A stretch of 64,000 nucleotides of DNA. It comes from Parcubacteria group bacterium. Its GTDB lineage: Bacteria > Patescibacteriota > Minisyncoccia > Phycocordibacterales > Zambryskibacteraceae. The notes below the pieces were generated by a model. The model ran no database searches and had not been told where the DNA came from. It saw only the letters and a program-made list of their open reading frames with translations. A program made the translations under genes and the position numbers. The stretch lies in the NCBI GenBank assembly GCA_028286565.1, contig JAQBRH010000002.1, positions 17,876 through 81,875 of the forward strand. The letters run 5' to 3'. Every line of letters begins with the position of its first letter. Position 1 is the stretch's first letter. This document shows, one piece after another, positions 3,924-24,657 of this stretch.

Positions 3924-4013
3924 AGGACCTCAAAGGTGGGTGTGATGAGCAAGTTCTCTAACTACCTTACTCTTTGGGCCTTGTATGTCAAAAGAAGTCG
4001 CCAATATAAGTAT

Positions 4014-4535
4014 CTACTCAACTATCACCTTTTTGATGTTTGAAAATTGCAGAAGATTCTTCTTGATCAAAGGCTTCATCATAGCTACTGAAAATGATGA
4101 TCCAAGCCAACCATCCATTTGTAGATCTGCATGAGCCACATCTCCTTCTAATCTCACTTTTACTAGGACGTCGGCCTGTCTTGGTGCGAACTCAGCCGCC
4201 TTTGTGGCTGCTTCAGAATACAGATCACTAATTTTATGAGTAATCTTTGTGCTTGTCGCTATCCACACGGTCTCGTTCATGATCTGATCAAGCTGCTGGT
4301 CACTCGTCATCCCTTTGGGAGGAGTGTTATTCCATACATCCAAAACTTTCTTCCTGTATACATCAAAGTCTTTGGGTAAAAAAATCGTAAGCTCATTTAT
4401 ATCTGAGCCGGTTTGCGCAGTAGAAGTTGTTTGACTTGCATTAGCGGGTACATCTTCCTTATTTCTAGTGGTGTAAACACCTACGCCGATCAAAACTATT
4501 AGTACGCAAATTATTAGAAGAATTCTTTTGTGCAT
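4014..4535 (-). CDS. Hypothetical membrane-anchored protein (single N-terminal TM); AT-rich gene
   Basis: N-terminal hydrophobic helix MHKRILLIICVLIVLIGVGVY, about 35% GC unlike neighbours. Confidence 0.55.
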   Translation of the reverse strand: MHKRILLIICVLIVLIGVGVYTTRNKEDVPANASQTTSTAQTGSDINELTIFLPKDFDVYRKKVLDVWNNTPPKGMTSDQQLDQIMNETVWIATSTKITHKISDLYSEAATKAAEFAPRQADVLVKVRLEGDVAHADLQMDGWLGSSFSVAMMKPLIKKNLLQFSNIKKVIVE

Positions 4536-4884
4536 ATTGTTGGTTGATAAAATTATAGCATCTATAATGCTGAGAGTCGTAGAAGACGTTAGAACTTGGA
4601 TACTGGAAAATTATGGCACTATGTATATACCAAATCTGCTGATTCATTAGGGGGTACCCTTACCCCCGAGAGGTGGGTACCCGGTAGGTGGAGTAATAGA
4701 TGTTAGGTTGGTTCTCAAAAAGTACCCCTTCCCCAGATTCTGCTCATCGGCAACCAATCTGAAATCTGGTATGAAATTTTTTGAATTCTTGGACTAAGGA
4801 ATGTGCACTTCCCATTTAGCTAAAAGTATGGTTATATTGAAAATAGAGTCCGGGCTAGCAATCTCACCTCTTCAGGGAAGACTA

Positions 4885-5472
4885 ATGAAAACGCCCAAGT
4901 TCCTTACATACCAGAGCCGGATCTACCTCGGCCTTATGATCGCAATTGCAGCAGCTGTGCAGATCTTCAGCCTCATGCTTGTGGGCGTGGACAACAAGGC
5001 CCTTCCTCCGATCACGCTCCACAGCCTTCACCTGGCAGGATTACTGATCTCATGCGGAGTCTTCCTGTTTCTCACATGGGCGGCCGTGTACTTCCTGTTC
5101 GTCGCAGTTCATCCAATCGACCTGATGAACGCCACCGACGACGCTGAGAAGGACGTGGTGGCTAGAAAGATCAGGGGCGGAGATACCGCTATCGTGACCT
5201 ATCACTTTCGTGAGTTGCCACTTCGGGCAAAGGTGCTCGAAGTCATGTGCTGGGTAATGGCCACGCTTTTCGGCTTCATGGGTCTCGCACTCGCTACGGG
5301 TGTCGTGGGATTTGCCTTGCGCGGTCCAGGTACCGGCAGCAAGTGGGGATACATCGGTGCGATGGTCTGCGGGGCCGTTCTCATGATTTCAATGGCTCTC
5401 GCCGGACGAACGAAGCGTGTGCATGCTTTCGAGAAGTCGCGTCTCGACCTGACTCGCGATCTCGGGATCTAG
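4885..5472 (+). CDS. Integral membrane protein (about 5 TM helices), hypothetical; ORF-finder start 4801 probably too far upstream
   Basis: MKTPKFLTYQ start preceded by AGGGAAG; multiple hydrophobic segments. Confidence 0.6.
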   Translation: MKTPKFLTYQSRIYLGLMIAIAAAVQIFSLMLVGVDNKALPPITLHSLHLAGLLISCGVFLFLTWAAVYFLFVAVHPIDLMNATDDAEKDVVARKIRGGDTAIVTYHFRELPLRAKVLEVMCWVMATLFGFMGLALATGVVGFALRGPGTGSKWGYIGAMVCGAVLMISMALAGRTKRVHAFEKSRLDLTRDLGI

Positions 5473-5473
5473 C

Positions 5474-5665
5474 ATGCGAGCCCATACGATCTACGCTCCA
5501 CCTGGAGACGAGAAGACTCTGGAGATAGCCAACTCGCTTCGTAGACAGGGATATATGGTAACTATCCAGCCCAACCCTGGACTTACCGAGCCCTTGTTCA
5601 GAGCTGAGGATGGTCCCATCAGGGGTTATGAGAAGATTCTTCAACACTTCCGTAACCAATCGTAA
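5474..5665 (+). CDS. Small hypothetical protein (63 aa), translationally coupled to upstream membrane protein
   Basis: Start 2 nt after upstream stop; GC-rich codon usage like host genes. Confidence 0.45.
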   Translation: MRAHTIYAPPGDEKTLEIANSLRRQGYMVTIQPNPGLTEPLFRAEDGPIRGYEKILQHFRNQS

Positions 5666-5689
5666 CGGCGTGCCTTCTAGGTGCGCTGT

Positions 5690-5744
5690 TTTTTTATTTA
5701 CTAATTTTGCGAGCTGGCCAGATGGTACGAAGTTGGAACCTATT
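5690..5744 (-). repeat. Copy 1 (inverted orientation) of conserved intergenic motif AGGTTCCAACTTCGTACCAtCtGGCCAGCT...
   Basis: Core ACGAAGTTGGAACCT at 5727-5741 is the reverse complement of the 15-nt core found at 14074-14088, 14675-14690 and 16077-16091; starts at the TAG stop of the 5740..6339 gene. Confidence 0.8.
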
Positions 5745-6339
5745 TGATAAATTTGAAAGTAGAAAGTATCTTATTTCCTTCTGATTCTTTTCTGTAAATA
5801 TCAACTTCATATATGTCTTCTCTGTGCTGGAAAAAAATTTGCTGAGACCATCCCTTAACAGCTTGGTCATTAGGGGACCCTCTGTATATCTCGTAAATAT
5901 ATGCTGTTTCTCCATCGATAGTATCTTTTCCAATAAATCTTCTTACAACTTTTCCACTATCATCTGTTTTAGAAATGAGATCCAAGAAATCAACAATATT
6001 TTTTGCTGATGCATAGTAACTACCCAATTCCTTTGAGCCCAGAGGATTAATTATAAAACTCATAGTTTGATTTCCGTTTTTTATCCCTATAGACAAAAGA
6101 GATTCGTCACCTGTTGCATCAACTTCTCCTTTAGAAGGGCCGACCGTCGTAATAGTCAAACTTTCTGGATAATTAAGTTTAAAATTGTGTGCAGTGTTTT
6201 TGTATATCTTCCAGTTATCAGTTTCAGTGTTACTCTCAGTTATTGAAGAAACATTTTGTATAGAGTTATTTTTTGAAACAAAATACCAACCACCCAGAAC
6301 TATAGTAATACCCACTATCAAAATTATTTTAATTTTCAT
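5740..6339 (-). CDS. Hypothetical secreted/membrane-anchored protein, AT-rich (alternative start 6378)
   Basis: MKIKIILIVGITIVLGGWYFV signal-anchor; about 33% GC. Confidence 0.55.
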   Translation of the reverse strand: MKIKIILIVGITIVLGGWYFVSKNNSIQNVSSITESNTETDNWKIYKNTAHNFKLNYPESLTITTVGPSKGEVDATGDESLLSIGIKNGNQTMSFIINPLGSKELGSYYASAKNIVDFLDLISKTDDSGKVVRRFIGKDTIDGETAYIYEIYRGSPNDQAVKGWSQQIFFQHREDIYEVDIYRKESEGNKILSTFKFIK

Positions 6340-6523
6340 AAATTTAAATATAGTACAAAAACAGTAATCTACCAACATTGCTGGCCGTCTCGAGCTGGAA
6401 CCGCGGACGGGCTTGCTTTGCTTGGCGGGTTAGTTACGTTTTGCAGTACTCCGATGATGCGTCTCGTGCGCTTCAAAAAGTGACGAAAGTTATTTAGCTC
6501 TTCTTTTTACAATGATCAGATCT

Positions 6524-6880
6524 TTATACCTCAGGCTCTTCATTAATACCCAATTTTGATTGCATTGCCTGTCTAATCCACCATGTGGCATACGTTGAGA
6601 ACTTGTAATCTTTCCCATGGTGTCCATGCTTCACATACATATCTACGGCTTTGTAGAGGCCAAGATTGCCTTCCGCGATCAAGTCCATGATTGATACATT
6701 AGGATCTGTACCCTCATATTTTTGTGCGATCCTAGCTACCAAACGAAGGTTGCCCTCCGCAAGCTTTTTCTTAGATTCATCATCTCCTTTGCGGGCAAGA
6801 GCTTTCTCCTCTTCTGCTTTAATGAGAGGAGACCTTGATATTTCCTCTAGATATTTTGTTAGTTGAGAGTTTTTTGCCAT
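6524..6880 (-). CDS. Truncated sigma-70 family fragment: regions 1.2-2.4 only (118 aa), no region 3/4; pseudogene or sigma-fragment decoy
   Basis: [42 protein letters not shown] are hallmark sigma70 region 2 motifs; ORF stops right after region 2.4 and no downstream region 3/4 ORF exists. Confidence 0.75.
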
Positions 6881-7337
6881 AATTTCTTAGTTTATTGATA
6901 TCCGGAGTTGAGAGCCAAGCAGCCATAGCCCCATATCCTTTCTTATTTATAGTAAACGGTTCAATGGGCTGTGCCTTTCTAAGAAAGATGAGTAGACAGT
7001 ACTTCTTATCTTTAAAAAGATTTGCATAGTGCGGGATATCCTTTTCCTCAATTCCGTCTTGTGTACCATACGCTTTGAGGATTTCTCGTACTTTAATTGG
7101 AGTAAGGCCCTCAAAGGTGAGTACTTTTGAGACTTCGGCGATGACGGTCACAGGCTCTCCACTATTCTTAAAATAAACGCTATCCCAGGCCTTGATCTTT
7201 CCCCACGGCGCGGAACGATTCATATACCAGCGGGATTCGATGGTCTTCTCTCCAGTGAGGACCTGGGGCAACAAACCCCAAGACTTTTTCATGATGGCCA
7301 CATGGTCGGTGTGATTGTTGTCTTTCCTTTTATTCAT
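6819..7337 (-). CDS. ASCH-domain-like protein (putative RNA-binding), 172 aa; 3' end overlaps sigma fragment by 62 nt
   Basis: [22 protein letters not shown] pattern resembles ASCH beta-barrel N-terminus; assignment tentative. Confidence 0.4.
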
Positions 7338-7635
7338 GAGGCAGCTCTTTCACTTTCCTTACAAGCTCGTCCCAACTAGATGTTTTCATTCTCTGTCCAG
7401 GCGGAAGTTCGAGATCACAAGCATGGTCCAAAATGTCACTTACAATATTTTGTCGTTCACCATTAATTGTTAAGGCCTCAAATCCTGTGCCACAGATCTT
7501 ATACGCCGCTTCTTCGGGCGTGAGATCACCAGCTTCCTTTCGAGCGATCGTATTCTCACAGTATTCTCTAAGAGCCGAGAGCTTCTTCTCAGGCGCAGCC
7601 TCATGTACTTTCTGAAATTCAGGATCTTGGGTCAT
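7330..7635 (-). CDS. Hypothetical protein (101 aa), 4-nt overlap (ATGA) with downstream gene
   Basis: ORF in AT-rich operon, coupled stop/start. Confidence 0.45.
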   Translation of the reverse strand: MTQDPEFQKVHEAAPEKKLSALREYCENTIARKEAGDLTPEEAAYKICGTGFEALTINGERQNIVSDILDHACDLELPPGQRMKTSSWDELVRKVKELPHE

Positions 7636-7678
7636 ATTGTGTAATAAGGATGGAATTACCTAGAAAATATTTCTTAAC

Positions 7679-8008
7679 TTAAGTAACAAAGGCACTAAGG
7701 AATTCTCTCAAAAAGAAAACGACGCCTATAAATATCAATGTTCCAATCAAAGACTTTTTTGAATAGTTATCTTCGTGATTTTTTCCATTGATCAGAAGAT
7801 ATGTTAGCTCATCAACAAATAATCCTAAGCCTACTGCATAAGTAACTACTGATCCGATCAGTAACCCCAAAAGAACGAGACCAACGCCGTACATATAATG
7901 ATGAGTCCAAAACTTCCCAACCGTAGGTGCAGGTATAGGTTTAAAGTACAGAAACAAGCGTGTGAAGATAATGGTACCTAGAAATATGAGGAAAAACAGA
8001 TCTGCCAT
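7679..8008 (-). CDS. Small membrane protein (3 TM), hypothetical
   Basis: Hydrophobic segments; AT-rich. Confidence 0.5.
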   Translation of the reverse strand: MADLFFLIFLGTIIFTRLFLYFKPIPAPTVGKFWTHHYMYGVGLVLLGLLIGSVVTYAVGLGLFVDELTYLLINGKNHEDNYSKKSLIGTLIFIGVVFFLREFLSAFVT

Positions 8009-8514
8009 GGGTTAAGTATATATGAATATAACCCTTCTGTTTCAGGAAAGTTTATTTACGTCTAGACACGAAAACACTGCTGAGAATAGCGAGAGTAAGA
8101 ATGATCCCAAGTGCGAACCATAAGGAAATATCTCTCGGATGCCCTATAAGATACCGAATATTAGACAGATATTGAGAAGGTTGCATCAAATCGGCTAGCC
8201 TATTGTTTCTGTATTCATGCTCAGATAGACGTTAACTCAGTATTAATCTTTCTGTACAGACGGTAAGGTCAACACAAGAAAGTTGACCGAGGGCCGTCTC
8301 TTTATCTATGCCTTGGACAGACATAATTGGAAAATAAAAGTCGTTAATGGACCCAATTGCCTCCACAGCCCTCCCGCAGGCCGTGCATTTTTATGTGGTT
8401 GTTGGTATGCATGATATCTATGACGTGAACAGCGGCCATGACTTACAAACTATTTGATATACCTCTACTTCTCCTAAAAAAGCGAGTCATCTAGACTCGT
8501 CCTTAGATGCAACA

Positions 8515-9042
8515 TCATCCTTTCTTAAGAAAAGGCACTGTGATTGAAGCAGCGAGGATAATACCAATACTATTACTTATGAGATCAAGCCACGTATCTT
8601 CGATGGTGGTCGACATTACAAAGCCGAGGTAATGCTGAAGCACAAACTCCAGGATCTCATTCCCCACCCCAAGCGCAGTCACCACAAGTGCCGTAAAAAC
8701 AAAAAATTGGAATTTATTGATTACGACTTTGCTGTCTCTGATCGCCAAGAAACAAACAACTAAAGCTAGAAACCCTCCACAAAGCCCATGCTGAATGCGA
8801 TTTGCAAGAGCTCCATCAAAGCTTTCAACAATGAGGGCACTAAAAAAATTAAGGATGAGGATAGTGACGATCGAGAGGCAAGCACGATGGAAATCTAGCT
8901 TAGGGATTCTCTGTTCAAAAAAGTATGCAACCAGGAAAAGAGAAACTAAATAAAGAATTGGGTAGGCAAAAGAAATACCAAAAAGGAGGGAGATAAGGTG
9001 GGCGGACATAACAGTAGAATACCACATACGAAGTTTGAACAA
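8515..9042 (-). CDS. Integral membrane protein (about 5 TM), hypothetical; hairpin CGAGTC-ATCTA-GACTCG plus T-run downstream on minus strand (8482-8510)
   Basis: Hydrophobicity pattern; terminator-like hairpin after stop. Confidence 0.55.
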   Translation of the reverse strand: MFKLRMWYSTVMSAHLISLLFGISFAYPILYLVSLFLVAYFFEQRIPKLDFHRACLSIVTILILNFFSALIVESFDGALANRIQHGLCGGFLALVVCFLAIRDSKVVINKFQFFVFTALVVTALGVGNEILEFVLQHYLGFVMSTTIEDTWLDLISNSIGIILAASITVPFLKKG

Positions 9043-9044
9043 TT

Positions 9045-9398
9045 TTAAAACTTTCCAGTTAATATAAAAACTAAGCTAATAAGCCCAAAAACAAACGCAA
9101 GCACGACAGTTCCTGAAATAAGATCTTTGCTGCGGCCAATTGCTTCATCGTGCCCAGGATGAAGTTTAGTAAGAGCAATTTCGATAGCCATATTTTGGAT
9201 TTCGGTAACTACAATGAAAAACCAGCAAAATATCAACAGTAGTAACTCTTGAGCTGATAGCGGCCCGAATAAGAAATATACAGCCGGTATTCCGATAATT
9301 CCAAAAACAATCATTTCGAAACGAACAGCGAAGTCCTGAGTGAAAGCATATTTCAAGCCTCGAAAGGGATGAGAAAGTCTATTAATCCAATACTTCAT
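9045..9398 (-). CDS. dgkA: Diacylglycerol kinase / undecaprenol kinase family (DgkA-like) membrane protein
   Basis: 3 TM helices and conserved EIQNMAIEIALTKLHPGHDEAIGRSKDLISGTVVLA resembling prokaryotic DAGK signature. Confidence 0.65.
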   Translation of the reverse strand: MKYWINRLSHPFRGLKYAFTQDFAVRFEMIVFGIIGIPAVYFLFGPLSAQELLLLIFCWFFIVVTEIQNMAIEIALTKLHPGHDEAIGRSKDLISGTVVLAFVFGLISLVFILTGKF

Positions 9399-9406
9399 GA
9401 CATATT

Positions 9407-9961
9407 TTAATTATGTGCTTTCTTTTTCTTAAACATCTTCTTATACTCGCTTCGGCTCATCAGACTTTTGGTATCAGTGAGTCTGTCTAAGAATACCTTG
9501 CCGTCAATATGGTCGAGCTCGTGGAGGATCACTTTGGCAAGCAAACCTTTAGCTTCCATAGTGAACCATTCTCCATTTTTGTCTCGCGCTTTAATGACAA
9601 GTGAAGTAGGTCTCGACACTTTGCCAAAGAGATTTGCATGGGCTACGCTGCCGCATCCTTCGTATTCTGAGAAGGTTTTCTTAGAGACTGAGAGTACCTG
9701 AGGATTTATGAATACACGCAGATCATCTGCCTCTTTATCTTTGTCGATTGTTCTCAGGGAAGTCATCCTTATTTCTGTAAGAAAAATCCTTTGGTTAATA
9801 CCAATTTGAGGAGCTGCGATCCCTACCAAATTTCCATGTCTCATTGAATCAACCAGATCTTTAATGGTCTTTTTAATTTTCTTTGATTTAAAATCCTTCA
9901 CCACAGAAGACTTCCTACGGATGATCGGATTGCCTACTTGGGTTAATTCTTTGATTATCAT
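9407..9961 (-). CDS. def: Peptide deformylase
   Basis: Motifs GIAAPQIGINQRIF, EGCGS, HELDHIDG (HExxH) diagnostic of PDF. Confidence 0.9.
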   Translation of the reverse strand: MIIKELTQVGNPIIRRKSSVVKDFKSKKIKKTIKDLVDSMRHGNLVGIAAPQIGINQRIFLTEIRMTSLRTIDKDKEADDLRVFINPQVLSVSKKTFSEYEGCGSVAHANLFGKVSRPTSLVIKARDKNGEWFTMEAKGLLAKVILHELDHIDGKVFLDRLTDTKSLMSRSEYKKMFKKKKAHN

Positions 9962-9969
9962 TTATTGTT

Positions 9970-10404
9970 TTAAATAAGATGTCTATCTGACTTCCAGACT
10001 ACACCTGAGCCAAAATCTGGAGCTCGAAATAAAGCCTTCTGATCATCCTCACTCATTTTCTGTGCGTACCCGCGTACAAGCTCTAGCTCCTTTGGGTCAG
10101 TAACCTTCCTGAAGCCCGGAGAATCATAGCCAGATCCCGGATCAGATTCCCATTTCAACAATCCCTCACTGTCGTTACCAAAGAGTCTTCCGGACTGTTC
10201 TCTAGACATCCACAGATACGTCTCATACCACCCGTCTATGATAGGTCCCTGAATTAATCTGACACTTTCTTTGTCTAGCCCTGTTTTATAATCTGCTACA
10301 CTCCAAGACCATCCTATTTGTGCTTGAATATCAAATTTAGCAAGGAAAAGTACTACTAAAGCTAATGCAAGCAGGAGCAAATAAAGTGAGTGAGTCTTTT
10401 TCAT
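9970..10404 (-). CDS. Hypothetical secreted protein (signal peptide), 144 aa
   Basis: N-terminal MKKTHSLYLLLLALALVVLFLA signal; AT-rich. Confidence 0.5.
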   Translation of the reverse strand: MKKTHSLYLLLLALALVVLFLAKFDIQAQIGWSWSVADYKTGLDKESVRLIQGPIIDGWYETYLWMSREQSGRLFGNDSEGLLKWESDPGSGYDSPGFRKVTDPKELELVRGYAQKMSEDDQKALFRAPDFGSGVVWKSDRHLI

Positions 10405-11060
10405 TTCTTTAAATATTCAAACATCTTCTCTAAAGCAATCTTTCTCATAGAAGTATTGTGTTTTTCATCATCATTCATCTCTGCCCAGGTCTTTTCATGT
10501 CCCTTGGGAATGAAAATGGGATCCCAGCCGAAACCCATTTCTCCTTTTGGAGCATTGGCAATTATTCCCTCCATAGATCCACTAAAGATGCGTACTCCCG
10601 ATTCATCACAAATAGCGAATTGAACTTCAGCTAAAGCGTCTCTGGTATCTAAACCGTCCACCAATCTACAGAGTCCCTCGTTATCAAGTGTTTCCAAAAA
10701 CCATTTAATAAGAGGACCAGGAAGAGATTTCATTCCCTTAAAAACAAGCGATACATCTTCTACTAATACTGGAGACTTTACGATTTCATATGCTCTTTTA
10801 GCCTTATCTTTAACAACTTCTTCCAAGTCTAAAGACTGGATTTCCTTAAGATCTAGTTTGGTGTGAGCAACAGGTAGATGAAAATAGTCTCCAAGATATT
10901 TGGCTTTTCCTTCATTACCCGTGATGAAAGTAAGATTACTCATAGCCTTCATCTTATCCTGATAGTCGTACTTAGCAAGCAGGTCAAATATCACTGCCAA
11001 TTCAGCAATAAACTCTTCGTGTGACTGCTCTAGGTCTTGATCTGTCACTGCTTTACTCAC
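10401..11060 (-). CDS. rdgB: Non-canonical purine NTP pyrophosphatase (Ham1/RdgB family) with N-terminal extension
   Basis: FITGNEGKAKYL N-terminal motif and C-terminal EMGFGWDPIFIPKGHEKTWAEM...HNTSMRKIA match ITPase family signatures. Confidence 0.7.
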   Translation of the reverse strand: MSKAVTDQDLEQSHEEFIAELAVIFDLLAKYDYQDKMKAMSNLTFITGNEGKAKYLGDYFHLPVAHTKLDLKEIQSLDLEEVVKDKAKRAYEIVKSPVLVEDVSLVFKGMKSLPGPLIKWFLETLDNEGLCRLVDGLDTRDALAEVQFAICDESGVRIFSGSMEGIIANAPKGEMGFGWDPIFIPKGHEKTWAEMNDDEKHNTSMRKIALEKMFEYLKK

Positions 11061-11104
11061 TTAGAAAAGTATTACATTGACGCGTCTTGAGCGTAGCACT
11101 TGTT

Positions 11105-11123
11105 TGCTGGGGAGCAGGGAATC
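11105..11123. repeat. 19-bp exact direct repeat of the 3' end of tRNA-Gln (tgctggggagcagggaatc); putative att scar
   Basis: Identical to 13576-13594 (tRNA-Gln T-stem 3' half plus acceptor 3' strand). Confidence 0.85.
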
Positions 11124-11860
11124 TCGACTACCGTCGCGAGTGGTTTTCGATCTCGACATACTCGATAACGAAAACCCTTTCGATTCCCTGACGCAAGCAA
11201 AGCAGTTTGCTTACTCTCTCCCAGCAGTAAAGCAAAACGAGCAGCCCGTGCCGCTCGTTTGTGCTAATAACTGCTGGGATTCGTGCGGGATGTTCGAACC
11301 CTTGTGGCTTCTTGTGATGAGGATTTCGAGAAACGACTCGAGAATATCAGGCGGATCAATGAGGCGACGACGGGAAGGGCTTTGGCTGCCTAGAACGTCT
11401 CGAACGTCCTAACGTCCGGAAATGCAAGGTTCACTGTGCTATTCCTCGAGCTCTACTGCCTCACATTCGGTTTAAACGTTGCGCTACTTCCAGGCATTAC
11501 TATCGACCTACTAGCGGTTACTGGTAGAGGGGTCTGGGGAAGCGCATCTGCTGGTGGAACCAGTGAAGCTGATCTTGTTTGGGTGGAAAGGGATATAGGA
11601 GGAGTGTCTTCACCCTCAGCCGTAAAACGTCGTCGATGTCGTGAAGTCCTATGCGCTGAAATGACCGGACGACCAGAAGTATGGTCGCTGTAGGTAGCCT
11701 CTATTAATATGGTAGCCCCACCAAAGGCTGAGCTCGTTCGCTCGTTGCTTAGAAACACGAGCGCGGCATGCTTTTGGCAAGGGTACGCTAGTGGCTAGTA
11801 CCTGGGTAGCCAAGGAGCTCCCCTGAGGAGCGAGATGCTTGCGCATAGCGCAAGGAGGAA
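11124..11860 (+). other. 0.74-kb segment without any credible ORF, rich in hairpins; candidate structured ncRNA, long leader, or decayed gene inside the putative integrated element
   Basis: All six frames fragmented by stops; hairpins CGCTCG-N13-CGAGCG (11737-11761), TTGCGC-ATA-GCGCAA (11836-11850); ends in AAGGAGG RBS of the next small gene. Confidence 0.35.
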
Positions 11861-11863
11861 TGT

Positions 11864-12037
11864 ATGGGCAAGAAGGACAAGTTCGAGGGACACAAGGACG
11901 AGAGCTTCAACCGTGCGCATGGCCGCCGGGACAACGAGCCGTCCAAGACAAAGCAGGACGACACCAAGCGCGAACGGAATGTCGCCGCAAAGGGTAGTGA
12001 AGAGCACAGCCGCGTAGCCAAAGGCAAGCGCGGTTAG
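11864..12037 (+). CDS. Small highly charged/basic protein (57 aa), below ORF-track cutoff
   Basis: Perfect SD AAGGAGG 5 nt upstream of ATG; followed by hairpin plus TTTTTCTTT terminator at 12063-12098. Confidence 0.6.
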   Translation: MGKKDKFEGHKDESFNRAHGRRDNEPSKTKQDDTKRERNVAAKGSEEHSRVAKGKRG

Positions 12038-12062
12038 TAAGCTCCTCTGAGCTCAGTTCGTT

Positions 12063-12098
12063 GACGGCCGGCGTGATTTCGCTGGCCGTTTTTCTTTA
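12063..12098 (+). terminator. Rho-independent terminator after small basic protein gene
   Basis: GGCCGGCG-tgatttc-GCTGGCCG imperfect stem followed by TTTTTCTTT. Confidence 0.55.
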
Positions 12099-12119
12099 TG
12101 ATGATGATACAATTTTATC

Positions 12120-12716
12120 ATGTCACACGAGGCGAACATCGCACGACGCGCATCCTGGCTCGGTAAGCACGGCACGGTCACCCTGATCGAAGATGAGACC
12201 ATTCAGGGGTACCAACATGCCCTTTCGCTCGAAGATGTCGCGGCAAGCTTGAAGCTCCTTCCGGAAGACGATCTAAGAGGCCTCGCCGCTGTCATCCTCC
12301 ACCAGCCTTCGCGAAAGGAAGACGCCGCCCACCCCCGCTGGGCGGCATATTTCTCCGACTATAGTCGGAATGATATCGTCGGTCCAACAATCCTGCTCGA
12401 GGCAGTTCGGCCGGAAGTTCCGAATCGTTGGCCGGTATCTCTTGGGCCCGAAGATGTCCGGGAGCTGAAACTACTTGTAGACGAAGGGCATGTCATCGAT
12501 CGGCAAGAACGGGTTGTCCTGATTTCGAATGACATTCACGCAGTGCGGAATACGCAGCTTCGTTCCTTGGTTCACGAGCTGGGGCATCATGTCGACTATA
12601 TGAGCAACCCAGCTTCGTACGCCTCGAAGGGAAAGAATCACAAAGAGTCTTTCGCGATTCGCTACGCGCGTCACCACGCTGACGTGCTCGACGGGCTGCG
12701 CTTCGCAAGGTCCTAA
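12120..12716 (+). CDS. Hypothetical protein with HExxH zinc-metallopeptidase-like motif (LVHELGHHVDY), SprT/ImmA-like possibility
   Basis: HELGH motif plus downstream His residues; no further family assignment possible. Confidence 0.45.
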   Translation: MSHEANIARRASWLGKHGTVTLIEDETIQGYQHALSLEDVAASLKLLPEDDLRGLAAVILHQPSRKEDAAHPRWAAYFSDYSRNDIVGPTILLEAVRPEVPNRWPVSLGPEDVRELKLLVDEGHVIDRQERVVLISNDIHAVRNTQLRSLVHELGHHVDYMSNPASYASKGKNHKESFAIRYARHHADVLDGLRFARS

Positions 12717-13095: not shown

Positions 13096-13527
13096 TTAAT
13101 CAAGAGGGTACAAAACATACCAAGGGTTCCCCGGTAGCCTTTTCCTAATACCAGCCTCAATGTTTCTGTCCGGCAAGTTGTGCCAAGGATCCACCCATCC
13201 ATCTTTTACTCTTAATAAATAGTGGCCGACGGGATACTTTTCGTTTTTAGCTATCAGAGTTATAGAACCTATAATTTTAGAATATTTACCTCCTTCCTTT
13301 TTATTAAACTCATATTTTTTATTTTGGTTAAAAAACTTACTTTTATAATTTATGTTTTTAGTTTTTAGATAATTTACAATATCAAATATTTTTACACCTC
13401 TTTCAATTGTATAAAACTTACTTTCAAAATCTTTCTTTACAGTGTCGTATGGTTTATCTAGAAAATTTGCGAGACAAGCAATTCCGCAACCGTTGAGATC
13501 TTTTTGATGTTGCCATTTTTTAGTCAT
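13096..13527 (-). CDS. Peptidase C39-like (papain-fold cysteine peptidase, C39_2-type) standalone domain; 30% GC, abuts tRNA-Gln
   Basis: Q-x5-NGCGIACLANFL catalytic Cys motif and C-terminal VGHYLL...DPWHN His region resemble C39 bacteriocin-processing peptidase domain. Confidence 0.5.
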   Translation of the reverse strand: MTKKWQHQKDLNGCGIACLANFLDKPYDTVKKDFESKFYTIERGVKIFDIVNYLKTKNINYKSKFFNQNKKYEFNKKEGGKYSKIIGSITLIAKNEKYPVGHYLLRVKDGWVDPWHNLPDRNIEAGIRKRLPGNPWYVLYPLD

Positions 13528-13575
13528 ACACCGATCCTACATTTTAATAATATATATGCAAGAGACTACCTTACG

Positions 13576-13648
13576 TGCTGGGGAGCAGGGAATCGAACCC
13601 CAATTAAAGGCTTCAAAGGCCTCTGTCCTACCGTTAGACGACTCCCCA
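13576..13648 (-). tRNA. tRNA-Gln (anticodon UUG)
   Basis: Minus-strand sequence TGGGGAG-TC-GTCT-AACGGTA-GGAC-A-GAGGC-CTTTGAA-GCCTT-TAAT-TGGGG-TTCGATT-CCCTG-CTCCCCA-G folds as cloverleaf with TTCGATT T-loop; acceptor UGGGG.../...CCCCA-G matches canonical bacterial tRNA-Gln. Confidence 0.85.
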
Positions 13649-24129: not shown

Positions 24130-24657
24130 GTGCATATGAAAACTCTCACTGTTGCGGAACAGTTTCAAGAAATATACGAATCCGAACTCGGCGCCATTTA
24201 TCGATTTTGCCTGATGCGAACGTCCGACCCGGAAGTCGCCTCGGACTTCAGCCAGGACGTCTTTCTGCGTTTTTGGAAAGCCTTGCTCGATAATCAGATC
24301 ATTAAAAATCCTCGAAGCTTTCTCTATACGATCGCCCGAAACATTATTATCGACGGATATAGGAAGAAAAAGACCTTATCGCTCGACGCCATCCTTTCGG
24401 ATGCGGGGGATGACAAGTCGGCGGTTGCGTCAACTCATTTGGACGCCATAGAGACCGAATGCGAAGCGGGCCGAGTCACCAAAGGCATGGAAGCTCTGGA
24501 CGAGCCGTATCGACGCGCGCTCCACATGCGCTACATCGAAGGATTGAAGCCTCGAGAGATCGCCACTATTCTCCAGGAATCCGCAAACGTCATCTCTGTC
24601 CGCATATCCCGCGGGGCAGAGCGGCTACGCAGTTCGATGGGCTATGCGAACGCTTAG
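24130..24657 (+). CDS. ECF-type RNA polymerase sigma factor (sigma-70 regions 2 and 4)
   Basis: Region 2 FLYTIARNIIIDGYRKK and region 4 HTH YIEGLKPREIATILQESANVISVRISRGAERLR. Confidence 0.8.
   Translation: MHMKTLTVAEQFQEIYESELGAIYRFCLMRTSDPEVASDFSQDVFLRFWKALLDNQIIKNPRSFLYTIARNIIIDGYRKKKTLSLDAILSDAGDDKSAVASTHLDAIETECEAGRVTKGMEALDEPYRRALHMRYIEGLKPREIATILQESANVISVRISRGAERLRSSMGYANA

What the first reader, a model, noticed from the sequence alone, without database searches (positions are those of the whole stretch)
6524..6880. Truncated sigma-70: regions 1.2-2.4 only, no region 3/4
The 118-aa product contains the core-RNAP-binding and -10-recognition region 2 ([12 protein letters not shown]...[13 protein letters not shown]) and then terminates. 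No downstream ORF supplies regions 3 or 4. It lies in the AT-rich block, and its 5' end is overlapped by the ASCH-like gene. A sigma fragment that can bind core but not the -35 element could act as a decoy or inhibitor of host transcription, as some phage-encoded factors do. It may also simply be a pseudogene.
Basis: partly seen in the sequence, partly recalled or inferred. Interest (0 to 1): 0.55.

Follow-up and report, generated by a model that had tools for sequence, protein, structure and literature searches.

The report
Conserved stand-alone sigma domain-2 protein
This short gene is not a broken sigma factor: it belongs to a small, conserved family of free-standing "domain 2 only" copies of the main bacterial transcription initiation factor, kept in tiny-genome (Parcubacteria-type) bacteria next to normal full-length sigma factors, and no such family turned up in the literature I could search.

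Summary
Window 6524-6880 (-) encodes a 118-aa protein with sigma-70 regions 1.2 and 2 only. It ends about 12 residues after WWIRQA, and no region 3/4 coding potential exists downstream or anywhere in the 64 kb.

It is not a pseudogene. About 13 proteins of 113-139 aa stop at the same point with a shared tail (xxKLGI + acidic). They sit inside long contigs, in unrelated gene contexts, and use TAA, TAG or TGA stops. They form one clade against canonical RpoD region 2 (bootstrap only 60%). dN/dS to the closest relative is 0.18. The same MAG apparently carries a second paralogue at 60% identity.

Region 2.3, which captures and melts the -10 strand, stays almost as conserved as in real RpoD (0.94 vs 0.97). 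The core-binding region 2.2 is relaxed (0.77 vs 0.94).

A 221-aa relative (P0267) fuses this module to a domain homologous to the window's 101-aa ORF (7330-7635). That same contig carries a full-length sigma 500 bp away.

Best reading: an accessory sigma-2-only factor, either a minimal -10-only initiation factor or a competitor for core RNAP, with a new partner domain. The mechanism is inferred, not shown. No phage link was found.

The parts
6524..6880 (-). Sigma-2-only gene. The 118-aa product (NCBI MDB5266216.1) carries regions 1.2, 2.1, 2.2, 2.3 and the first residues of 2.4, then an acidic tail ([12 protein letters not shown]) and a TAA stop.
   Evidence: Pfam r1_2 + r2. NCBIfam RpoD partial match. 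AF2 model pLDDT 86.5, six helices. Foldseek PDB top hits are sigma domain 2 in holoenzymes, TMq 0.72-0.80. Family alignments. dN/dS 0.18.
7330..7635 (-). 101-aa all-helical protein (JWN89_33, MDB5266218.1), the candidate partner or regulator of the sigma-2 protein ('PD' domain). It has invariant C26, C48, C73 and an ACDLELP motif.
   Evidence: Homologous to the C-terminal half of the sigma2 fusion protein P0267 (BLASTP E 8e-18, 35% identity; alignment). Its 72%-identical homologue lies 13 nt upstream of the sigma-2 gene in L087. Only two homologues in 5.8 billion proteins. AF2 pLDDT 82, five helices. No significant PDB fold match. No Pfam, PADLOC or PHROG hit.
6819..7337 (-). 172-aa ORF (JWN89_32) wedged between the partner gene and the sigma-2 gene. 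It overlaps the partner gene by 8 nt and the sigma-2 gene by 62 nt. It is co-directional and probably co-transcribed. ASCH-like only weakly.
   Evidence: ORF list. Absent from the closest relative's locus L087, where the PD gene abuts the sigma-2 gene. Pfam ASCH E 0.17, below threshold. Exact protein annotated in NCBI as hypothetical.
6379..6523 (.). 145-bp intergenic spacer after the stop codon. It holds no remnant of regions 2.4-4, no structured RNA and no clear terminator on the gene's strand.
   Evidence: Three-frame translations. RNA fold z-score +1.9. Rfam shows nothing here. Terminator scan.
12120..12716 (+). 198-aa protein with an HELGHH (HExxH) motif (JWN89_42). Its 48%-identical homologue sits directly upstream of the sigma2-PD fusion gene in L092. 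Possibly linked; membership is uncertain.
   Evidence: tblastn between window and L092. L092 ORFs. No Pfam or NCBIfam family.

Best explanation
SHOWN: the gene encodes an intact, selectively maintained protein that is just the sigma-2 domain of a primary-type (RpoD-like) sigma factor. It belongs to a small family of 113-139-aa sigma-2-only paralogues in Parcubacteria/Patescibacteria-type genomes. In at least one related genome such a protein exists alongside a full-length sigma factor. Here it sits in a co-directional, overlapping gene string with a 101-aa helical protein that is fused to the same module in a relative.

INFERRED: the protein docks on the beta-prime clamp helices of core RNA polymerase, as sigma-2 does in any holoenzyme. 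It uses its fully conserved region 2.3 residues (equivalents of E. coli F427, Y430, W433, W434, R436, Q437) to capture the non-template strand of a -10-like element. It has no sigma-3, no 3.2 finger and no sigma-4, so it cannot read a -35 element or hold the beta flap. It would therefore act as a minimal -10-only melting/initiation factor in the manner of phage T4 gp55. While bound it would necessarily exclude the full-length sigma from that polymerase. The 101-aa protein is proposed as its partner or regulator. Whether the net output is activation of a special promoter class or damping of housekeeping transcription is unresolved.
For: - The domain is complete and well folded: AF2 pLDDT 86.5, and PDB fold hits are sigma domain 2.
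- Thirteen short members share the stop position and the xxKLGI tail. They lie inside contigs of up to 308 kb, use TAA/TAG/TGA stops, and are followed by unrelated genes.
- Twelve of them form one clade in an NJ tree built without the tail.
- dN 0.174, dS 0.99, omega 0.18 against P0002. dS is saturated for nearly all other pairs.
- A second paralogue, P0005 (MDB5266577), falls in the same accession and locus-tag series as this gene (MDB5266216; JWN89 tags).
- Region 2.3 majority-residue conservation is 0.94 in the family against 0.97 in canonical RpoD. Regions 1.2, 2.1 and 2.2 drop to 0.61, 0.73 and 0.77 against 0.80, 0.93 and 0.94. Even the most divergent member (L086 ORF) keeps [17 protein letters not shown] intact.
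- The fusion protein P0267 is sigma2 + PD. PD is adjacent to the sigma-2 gene in L087.
- Locus L092 carries P0267 and a 473-aa sigma with regions 1.2-4 about 500 bp apart. P0267's sigma-2 part is closer to the family (56-62%) than to that sigma (49.5%).
- Precedent: T4 gp55 is a sigma-R2-like protein that binds the clamp helices and recognises a -10-like element alone (PMC7892883).
- Own knowledge: isolated sigma-2 fragments bind -10 single-stranded DNA (Feklistov and Darst 2011, PDB 3UGO, listed).
Against: - There are no expression or binding data.
- The canonical core-binding residues Q406 and E407 are not conserved in the family (0.50 and 0.42), so affinity for core may be lower or different.
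- Absence of the 3.2 finger and sigma-4 makes efficient initiation doubtful without helpers.
- The PD protein has no detectable similarity to sigma-4, HTH domains or gp33. It is found only in this sub-lineage, not near other family members.
- The full-length sigma of this very genome was not seen, because only 64 kb are available.
- Monophyly has only 60% bootstrap on 109 columns.
- The family is rare, about 15 clusters at 90% identity in 5.8 billion proteins.
Confidence: 0.55

Rival explanations
1. Core-RNAP decoy or competitive inhibitor. The fragment occupies the beta-prime clamp helices, blocks full-length sigma, and so lowers or re-tunes transcription without itself directing initiation.
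For: The sigma-2 fold is complete. It lacks everything needed for -35 reading and for the 3.2-finger functions. Any sigma-2 bound to core must exclude another sigma (established structural knowledge). The protein coexists with a full-length sigma in L092.
Against: The pattern of constraint is the reverse of what a decoy needs. Core-binding residues in region 2.2 are relaxed, and Q406/E407 are variable. The DNA-melting region 2.3 is as conserved as in real RpoD. In alternative sigma factors these 2.3 residues vary freely (own knowledge), so the fold alone does not demand them. No phage or defence-system context was found.
Confidence: 0.22
2. One half of a split sigma factor. A separately encoded region 3-4 polypeptide elsewhere in the genome reassembles with it, as in B. 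subtilis SigO-RsoA. Or a DNA rearrangement rejoins the two halves, as in sigK interrupted by the skin element.
For: Split sigma factors exist (PMC7826278; PMC10141391). The break lies exactly at the domain boundary between sigma-2 and sigma-3. Two paralogues occur in one genome.
Against: No region 3/4 fragment appears in 64 kb of window or within about 1-10 kb of the gene (to the contig end) in the other loci read. The only sigma nearby, in L092, is complete and has its own region 2. The conserved family-specific tail replaces region 2.4 rather than breaking it cleanly. The fusion partner PD is not sigma-4-like. No recombinase or element borders were seen.
Confidence: 0.08
3. An RNAP-independent single-stranded-DNA binding or sensing protein. 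It exploits the -10 strand-capture surface and is tied to the DNA-damage response.
For: Regions 1.1 and 4, which mask DNA binding in free sigma (own knowledge), are absent. Region 2.3 is the most constrained part. In two distant sub-lineages the gene lies within a few genes of a Y-family polymerase (IMS) gene and an S24 LexA/UmuD-like gene, plus NUDIX, DNA-alkylation repair, MgsA and SprT-like genes (L004; L089/L090).
Against: The association appears in only 2 of about 8 independent contexts and not in this window. Most region 2.1-2.2 positions are still well conserved (DLI.xGNLGL.KAV), which suggests the core interface still matters. There is no precedent.
Confidence: 0.1
4. A pseudogene, or a sequencing, assembly or gene-calling artefact of a truncated rpoD.
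For: The protein stops where a full-length sigma would continue. It sits in a compositionally odd block. NCBI simply calls it a primary sigma factor.
Against: An independent assembly gives identical sequence. The family shares the same end point and a conserved tail. omega is 0.18. Members are internal to long contigs and use three different stop codons. A fusion variant adds a different domain rather than regions 3-4.
Confidence: 0.03

Closest known systems
Domain 2 of primary (group 1) sigma factors RpoD/SigA, and the engineered sigma-2 fragments used in structural work (e.g. PDB 3UGO, 5H6X, 4X8K)
   Same: 50-57% sequence identity to canonical RpoD region 1.2-2.3. Same six-helix fold. All -10 strand-capture residues are kept. 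The length and boundaries match the laboratory sigma-2 constructs.
   Different: This is a natural, separately encoded and conserved protein. It lacks regions 1.1, 3.0-3.2 and 4. It has its own C-terminal tail (xxKLGI + acidic residues) in place of [16 protein letters not shown]. The canonical core-binding residues Q406/E407 are variable. It evolves faster: 0.55 within-family identity against 0.72 among canonical sequences.
Bacteriophage T4 gp55 (late sigma) with co-activator gp33 (PMC7892883; PMC2988020)
   Same: A small sigma-R2-type protein without sigma-4. gp55 binds the clamp helices and recognises a -10-like element on its own, and it works with a separate small helical partner.
   Different: gp55 is very diverged from sigma-70, carries an extra helix-loop-helix and a sliding-clamp-binding motif, and is a phage protein. 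The protein here is a close RpoD derivative in a cellular genome. Its candidate partner PD shows no similarity to gp33. No phage context was found.
B. subtilis two-subunit sigma factor SigO-RsoA (MacLellan et al. 2009, cited in PMC7826278)
   Same: Sigma function is spread over two small polypeptides encoded together. One is a short protein with a region-2-like segment.
   Different: SigO-RsoA belongs to the ECF/group 3-4 world, and between them the two proteins supply both sigma-2 and sigma-4. Here no sigma-4 is supplied by the neighbour, and the module is RpoD-derived.
sigK split by the skin element (B. subtilis, C. difficile; own knowledge)
   Same: An ORF encoding only the N-terminal, region-2 half of a sigma factor.
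   Different: There the C-terminal half lies on the same chromosome across an excisable element with its own recombinase, and the break is not conserved as a stand-alone protein. Here no C-terminal half or element is detectable, and the short form is conserved in many contexts.
MzaA, the sigma-70-family protein of the MZA anti-phage system (NF041931 / PADLOC PDLC02203)
   Same: Shares the generic sigma region 2.
   Different: MzaA is about 700 aa, and the match covers only its region 2. No other MZA components were hit among the seven proteins scanned.

Membership tests
Sigma-70 family (Pfam clan; RpoD-type) | Region 2 (core binding, -10 recognition), Pfam PF04542 | tested here: met
   E 2.6e-12, 46.8 bits against cut-off 24, aa 41-109. 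Fold confirmed.
Sigma-70 family (Pfam clan; RpoD-type) | Region 1.2, Pfam PF00140 (groups 1-2) | tested here: met
   E 5.4e-07, 29.9 bits against cut-off 22, aa 7-31.
Sigma-70 family (Pfam clan; RpoD-type) | Region 4 (-35 recognition, beta-flap binding), PF04545/PF08281 | tested here: not met
   No hit. The protein ends at the equivalent of E. coli residue ~451. No coding potential downstream.
Sigma-70 family (Pfam clan; RpoD-type) | Region 3 (extended -10, 3.2 finger), PF04539 | tested here: not met
   No hit. The alignment to SigA stops at residue 199 of 371.
RpoD equivalog (NCBIfam NF006666 / TIGR02393) | Whole-protein score above the curated cut-off | tested here: not met
   105.7 bits against 572; 77.5 bits against 354. 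The NCBI name 'primary sigma factor' is therefore an over-annotation.
T4 gp55-type late sigma | Sequence membership in the gp55 family, an HLH motif after the R2-like domain, and a sliding-clamp-binding motif | tested here: not met
   PHROGs gives only the generic sigma family phrog_351. BFVD fold hits are ordinary phage sigma factors; only one weak hit (E 0.46, TMq 0.47) is under 170 aa. The protein ends right after the R2-like domain.
T4 gp55-type late sigma | Binds the clamp helices and directs initiation from a -10-like element alone | not testable with these tools
   Needs biochemistry. Only residue conservation could be assessed.
Two-subunit sigma (SigO-RsoA type) | A co-encoded second polypeptide supplies the missing sigma domain (sigma-4) | tested here: not met
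   The co-encoded or fused PD protein has no Pfam hit and no significant fold match to sigma-4 or HTH domains. No region 4 lies nearby except inside complete sigma factors.
Sigma gene split by an excisable element (sigK/skin type) | The C-terminal half is on the same replicon, separated by an element with a recombinase | tested here: not met
   No region 3/4 fragment in the 64 kb. Only 64 of the contig's 220,859 bp could be read, so this is not exhaustive.
Short sigma-2-only family defined here (P0001-6, 12/15, 17, 132, 140, 184, 338; fusion P0267) | RpoD-like regions 1.2-2.3, a stop about 5-25 residues after WWIR(Q/E)A, tail xxKLGI or a variant, and (K/R)(D/G/E)(Y/F)(K/R)F before S(T/S/E)YA(T/S)WW | tested here: met
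   Alignments. Clade in the NJ tree. Profile searches.

The most novel reading that the evidence does not exclude
A cellular counterpart of the phage gp55 principle. Parcubacteria-type bacteria keep one or more sigma-2-only 'mini-sigmas' derived from RpoD. These load onto core RNAP and open -10-only promoters, or re-tune sigma competition. They work together with a previously unknown cysteine-bearing helical partner domain (separate here, fused in P0267). In some lineages they are wired to a DNA-damage/translesion gene cluster. This would be a new class of bipartite or minimal initiation factor in bacteria.
Probability: 0.2. Interest if true: 0.8.

Novelty: new variant of a known kind. Interest (0 to 1): 0.6.

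Why it matters
Sigma factors are defined by pairing a -10-reading domain 2 with a -35-reading domain 4. The only well-studied natural exceptions are phage T4 gp55 and the split SigO-RsoA pair.

A conserved, cellular, RpoD-derived domain-2-only family would be a natural experiment on the minimal machinery for promoter melting. It would also bear on sigma competition in organisms with very small regulatory repertoires (CPR/Patescibacteria).

It has a practical side too. These proteins are currently annotated as 'primary sigma factor', which can mislead sigma-factor counts and completeness or metabolic inferences for such genomes. The fusion and neighbourhood link also gives a first functional handle on an orphan 101-aa protein family.

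Tried and rejected
1. Hidden regions 3/4. I tried three-frame translation downstream, tblastn with an E. coli C-terminus, an HMM of 77 RpoD C-termini against all six-frame ORFs of the window and family loci, and tblastn with the L092 full-length sigma. Only a complete ECF sigma at 24130-24657 turned up.

2. Structured RNA, intron or terminator in the GC-richer 145-bp spacer. Rfam gave nothing, the fold z-score was +1.9, and there was no terminator on the gene's strand.

3. Phage or defence origin. The viral pattern scan gave 0 hits. Phage tblastn gave only canonical sigma factors. DNA of the block has no phage match. PADLOC matched only MzaA, through generic region 2. PHROGs gave only the generic sigma family.

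4. GTDB representative genomes scanned with P0001. Only canonical RpoDs of Actinomycetota and others came back.

5. Conserved gene neighbourhood across the whole family. None exists. The exceptions are the PD link in this lineage and the IMS/S24 link in two others.

7. Proteins with 2-3 sigma-2 stretches at the top of the representative search (P0121-P0129). They look like assembly duplications or chimeras of ordinary RpoD/RpoS, not family members.

8. Chimeric assembly as the cause of the AT-rich block. This is unlikely. The Logan contig spans the AT-to-GC switch at about 5600, and the related JGI contig L092 shows the same mosaic.

9. Literature. No paper on natural sigma-2-only proteins in CPR bacteria was found.

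Full report
**Observation.**

The ORF at 6524-6880 on the minus strand (ATG to TAA, 118 aa) is real.
- Pfam finds Sigma70_r1_2 (aa 7-31, E 5.4e-07) and Sigma70_r2 (aa 41-109, E 2.6e-12). Both score above their gathering thresholds. Nothing is found for regions 3 or 4.
- NCBIfam's RpoD model aligns aa 8-107 to profile positions 102-198 of 370, at 105.7 bits against a cut-off of 572.
- B. subtilis SigA in PDB 7ckq aligns over residues 99-199 of 371.
- In E. coli sigma70 numbering (my own mapping), the protein runs from region 1.2 to about residue 451. Q437 is kept. T440 and R441 of region 2.4 are replaced by the tail [12 protein letters not shown]. Region 1.1 is also absent.
- An AlphaFold2 model built on 12 sequences is confident (pLDDT 86.5, six helices). 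Its best PDB fold matches are domain 2 of SigA/RpoS in holoenzyme structures (TMq 0.72-0.80).

**No regions 3/4.**

- After the TAA, all three frames are full of stops.
- Only 145 bp separate the stop from the next gene, a PsbP-like lipoprotein at 5740-6378.
- That spacer has no Rfam match, folds worse than shuffled sequence (z = +1.9), and has no terminator on the gene's strand.
Apart from the gene itself, the only hit in the 64 kb is a complete ECF-type sigma at 24130-24657 (Sigma70_r2 + r4_2).
- A Logan contig assembled independently from run SRR13312974 is 100% identical to window 4909-11080, stop codon included.

**It is a family, not a wreck.**

- The exact protein is NCBI MDB5266216.1, from a Parcubacteria-group MAG on a 220,859-bp contig.
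- Database searches recover proteins of 113-139 aa that end at the same place: P0002 (78% identity), P0003, P0004, P0005, P0006, P0012/P0015, P0017, P0132, P0140, P0184, and the L086 ORF (= P0338/P0333).
- They share a tail absent from canonical RpoD: WWIRQAI-xx-KLGI followed by acidic residues, in place of [23 protein letters not shown].
- Where DNA was available, the genes lie inside contigs and end in TAA, TAG or TGA, so this is not a recoding artefact.
- They are followed closely by unrelated genes: a GNAT acetyltransferase 3 bp away in L001, VanY in L004, a Y-family polymerase in L089/L090, and a tRNA-binding protein in L093. None shows downstream region 3/4 remnants.
- I built a neighbour-joining tree on the 109 columns up to WWIRQAx, so the tail was excluded. 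The 12 short proteins form one clade against 60 canonical region-2 sequences. Bootstrap support is only 60%.
- Against P0002, dN = 0.174, dS = 0.99 and omega = 0.18. For nearly all other pairs dS is saturated while dN stays at 0.24-0.63.
- The paralogue P0005 (60% identity, on a 308-kb contig) is MDB5266577.1. This gene and its neighbours run MDB5266211-287 with locus tags JWN89_32-102. P0005 therefore falls in the same consecutive series and almost certainly in the same genome.
- Together these results rule out a recent pseudogene, an assembly error and a contig-end artefact.

**What selection preserves.**

I compared majority-residue conservation in the 12 short proteins with 60 canonical RpoD sequences.

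| Region | Short family | Canonical RpoD |
|---|---|---|
| 1.2 | 0.61 | 0.80 |
| 2.1 | 0.73 | 0.93 |
| 2.2 | 0.77 | 0.94 |
| 2.3 to start of 2.4 | 0.94 | 0.97 |

- The canonical core-binding residues Q406 and E407 are invariant in RpoD. In the family they fall to 0.50 and 0.42.
- F427, S428, Y430, W433, W434, I435 and R436 are invariant in the family. Q437 is kept in 11 of 12 members.
- The most divergent member (L086 ORF) has rewritten regions 1.2 and 2.2 but keeps [17 protein letters not shown] letter for letter.
- From established structural work (own knowledge; e.g. PDB 3UGO), these residues capture and flip the non-template -10 bases. In alternative sigma factors they vary, so the fold alone does not require them.
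- Constraint is therefore centred on the DNA-melting surface. That argues against a pure core-binding decoy.

**Partner and coexistence with a full-length sigma.**

- A profile search found P0267 (221 aa). It is a family-type sigma-2 module with the KLGI tail, continuing into a C-terminal domain.
- That domain is homologous to the window's 101-aa ORF at 7330-7635 (BLASTP E 8e-18, 35% identity over 96 residues; invariant C26, C48, C73 and ACDLELP).
- In the closest relative's contig (L087), the homologue of this 101-aa protein (72% identity) ends 13 nt before the sigma-2 gene.
- In the window, a 172-aa ORF (6819-7337) is wedged between the two. It overlaps the 101-aa gene by 8 nt and the sigma-2 gene by 62 nt. 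Its ASCH similarity is weak (E 0.17).
- Gene fusion plus adjacency is a classic sign of functional coupling.
- The 101-aa protein has only these homologues in 5.8 billion proteins. It matches no Pfam, PADLOC or PHROG family.
- Its AlphaFold2 model is a five-helix protein (pLDDT 82, from only 3 sequences). It has no significant PDB fold match, so no support for a sigma-4, HTH or gp33-like role could be obtained.
- The P0267 contig (L092) is from a related organism. Its peptide deformylase is 78% identical to the window's, and an HExxH protein directly upstream of P0267 is 48% identical to window 12120-12716.
- About 500 bp from P0267, L092 carries a 473-aa sigma with regions 1.2, 2, 3 and 4. 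Its best NCBIfam match is RpoD at 194 bits.
- P0267's sigma-2 part is 49.5% identical to that sigma but 56-62% identical to the short family.
- So the short proteins are old accessory paralogues that coexist with a full-length sigma, not replacements for one.

**Context.**

- No gene neighbourhood is shared by the whole family.
- One recurrent theme appears. In L004, and in the distantly related L089/L090, the gene lies within a few genes of an IMS (Y-family polymerase) gene and a Peptidase_S24 (LexA/UmuD-like) gene. NUDIX, DNA-alkylation repair, MgsA and SprT-like genes are also nearby. This is a lead, not a result.
- No phage connection was found.

**Mechanism (inferred).**

- The most economical reading: the protein binds the beta-prime clamp helices like any sigma-2 and uses an intact -10 strand-capture surface.
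- Without regions 3.0, 3.2 and 4 it could at best act as a minimal -10-only melting or initiation factor. T4 gp55 does this (PMC7892883).
- While bound, it excludes full-length sigma.
- The 101-aa protein would be its co-factor or regulator.
- Three rivals remain: a pure decoy, half of a split sigma in the manner of SigO-RsoA (PMC7826278, PMC10141391), and an RNAP-independent ssDNA-binding role. All three are less well supported but not excluded.
- No step of the mechanism is demonstrated.

**Novelty.**

- I found no description of natural, cellular, RpoD-derived sigma-2-only proteins in the searchable literature.
- Databases label them 'primary sigma factor', although they fall far below the RpoD equivalog cut-off.
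- I class this as a new variant of a known kind: the sigma-70 family, in a minimal single-domain form with a novel partner domain.
- The family is rare. All members with a taxonomic label are Parcubacteria-group, and the closest canonical sequences are from Nealsonbacteria, Pacebacteria and Patescibacteria MAGs.

**Limits.**

- Only 64 kb of this genome could be read, so its own full-length sigma was not seen.
- The single GTDB scan was unproductive.
- Monophyly rests on a short alignment.
- The PD structure rests on three sequences.

Noticed in passing
window 4000-11100 (and L092 1-6400 vs 7200-9552): Sharp compositional mosaic. The block is 30-49% GC per 200 bp and the flanks 51-62%, with a GC-rich patch at 5000-5600 inside the block. 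The independent Logan contig spans the switch at ~5600. The related JGI contig L092 shows the same AT-rich/GC-rich alternation, with the full-length sigma in the GC-rich part. This looks like a real genome feature of the lineage rather than a chimeric assembly; the cause is unknown.
   Followed up: partly
window 24130-24657 (+): A complete ECF-type sigma factor of 175 aa (Sigma70_r2 + Sigma70_r4_2; NCBIfam sigma70-ECF 83.9 bits). This exact ORF (GTG start) is not in the protein collection, so the annotated start may differ.
   Followed up: partly
window 11080-12100: About 1 kb of GC-rich sequence without a convincing ORF and without an Rfam match. It lies directly after the Ham1-like gene, and the Logan contig L003 ends exactly at 11080.
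   Followed up: no
L004 4475-8128; L089 4697-10219; L090 6802-12601: In two distant branches of the short-sigma family the gene sits beside a Y-family DNA polymerase (IMS) gene and an S24 LexA/UmuD-like peptidase gene. NUDIX, DNA-alkylation repair, MgsA, SprT/YgjP-like and PemK toxin genes are also nearby. This may link the family to a DNA-damage gene cluster.
   Followed up: partly
L092 7020-8441 (-): The full-length 473-aa RpoD-like sigma next to the sigma2-PD fusion has a diverged region 2.3 (DYKIARFTTMATWWVRQAI; the equivalents of Y425 and Y430 are replaced). The short paralogues, by contrast, keep the canonical motif. It also has a ~160-aa N-terminal extension.
   Followed up: no
window 12120-12716 (+) and L092 5204-5791 (+): An orphan ~195-aa protein family with an HELGHH (HExxH metalloprotease-like) motif and no Pfam or NCBIfam family. 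In L092 it is directly upstream of the sigma2-PD fusion gene.
   Followed up: partly
protein P0131 (292 aa; no locus fetched): An AT-rich/CPR-like protein made of two diverged tandem sigma-2-like domains and no region 4. It is a different unusual sigma-2 architecture. By contrast, P0121-P0129 with 2-3 sigma-2 stretches look like assembly duplications or chimeras of ordinary RpoD/RpoS.
   Followed up: no
window 13096-13648: A very AT-rich 143-aa ORF (13096-13527, minus strand; 23% GC around 13200-13400) with a weak Peptidase_C39 match (E 0.003). It lies immediately beside tRNA-Gln (13577-13648, minus strand). This could be a small island at a tRNA gene.
   Followed up: no
P0012 / L005 6084-6473: The 129-aa family member P0012 ends in KLGIETDWVKEDGVSYKKL. 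This resembles the linker of the fusion protein P0267 (KLGIPTDWEKFYEDGLEE...). It may be a truncated former fusion. No PD remnant was found downstream in L005.
   Followed up: partly
window 6819-7337 (-) vs L087: The 172-aa ORF between the PD gene and the sigma-2 gene is absent from the closest relative's locus, where the two genes are 13 nt apart. So it is a recent insertion here or a loss there. Its last ~20 codons are read from the sigma-2 gene's 5' end in another frame.
   Followed up: partly
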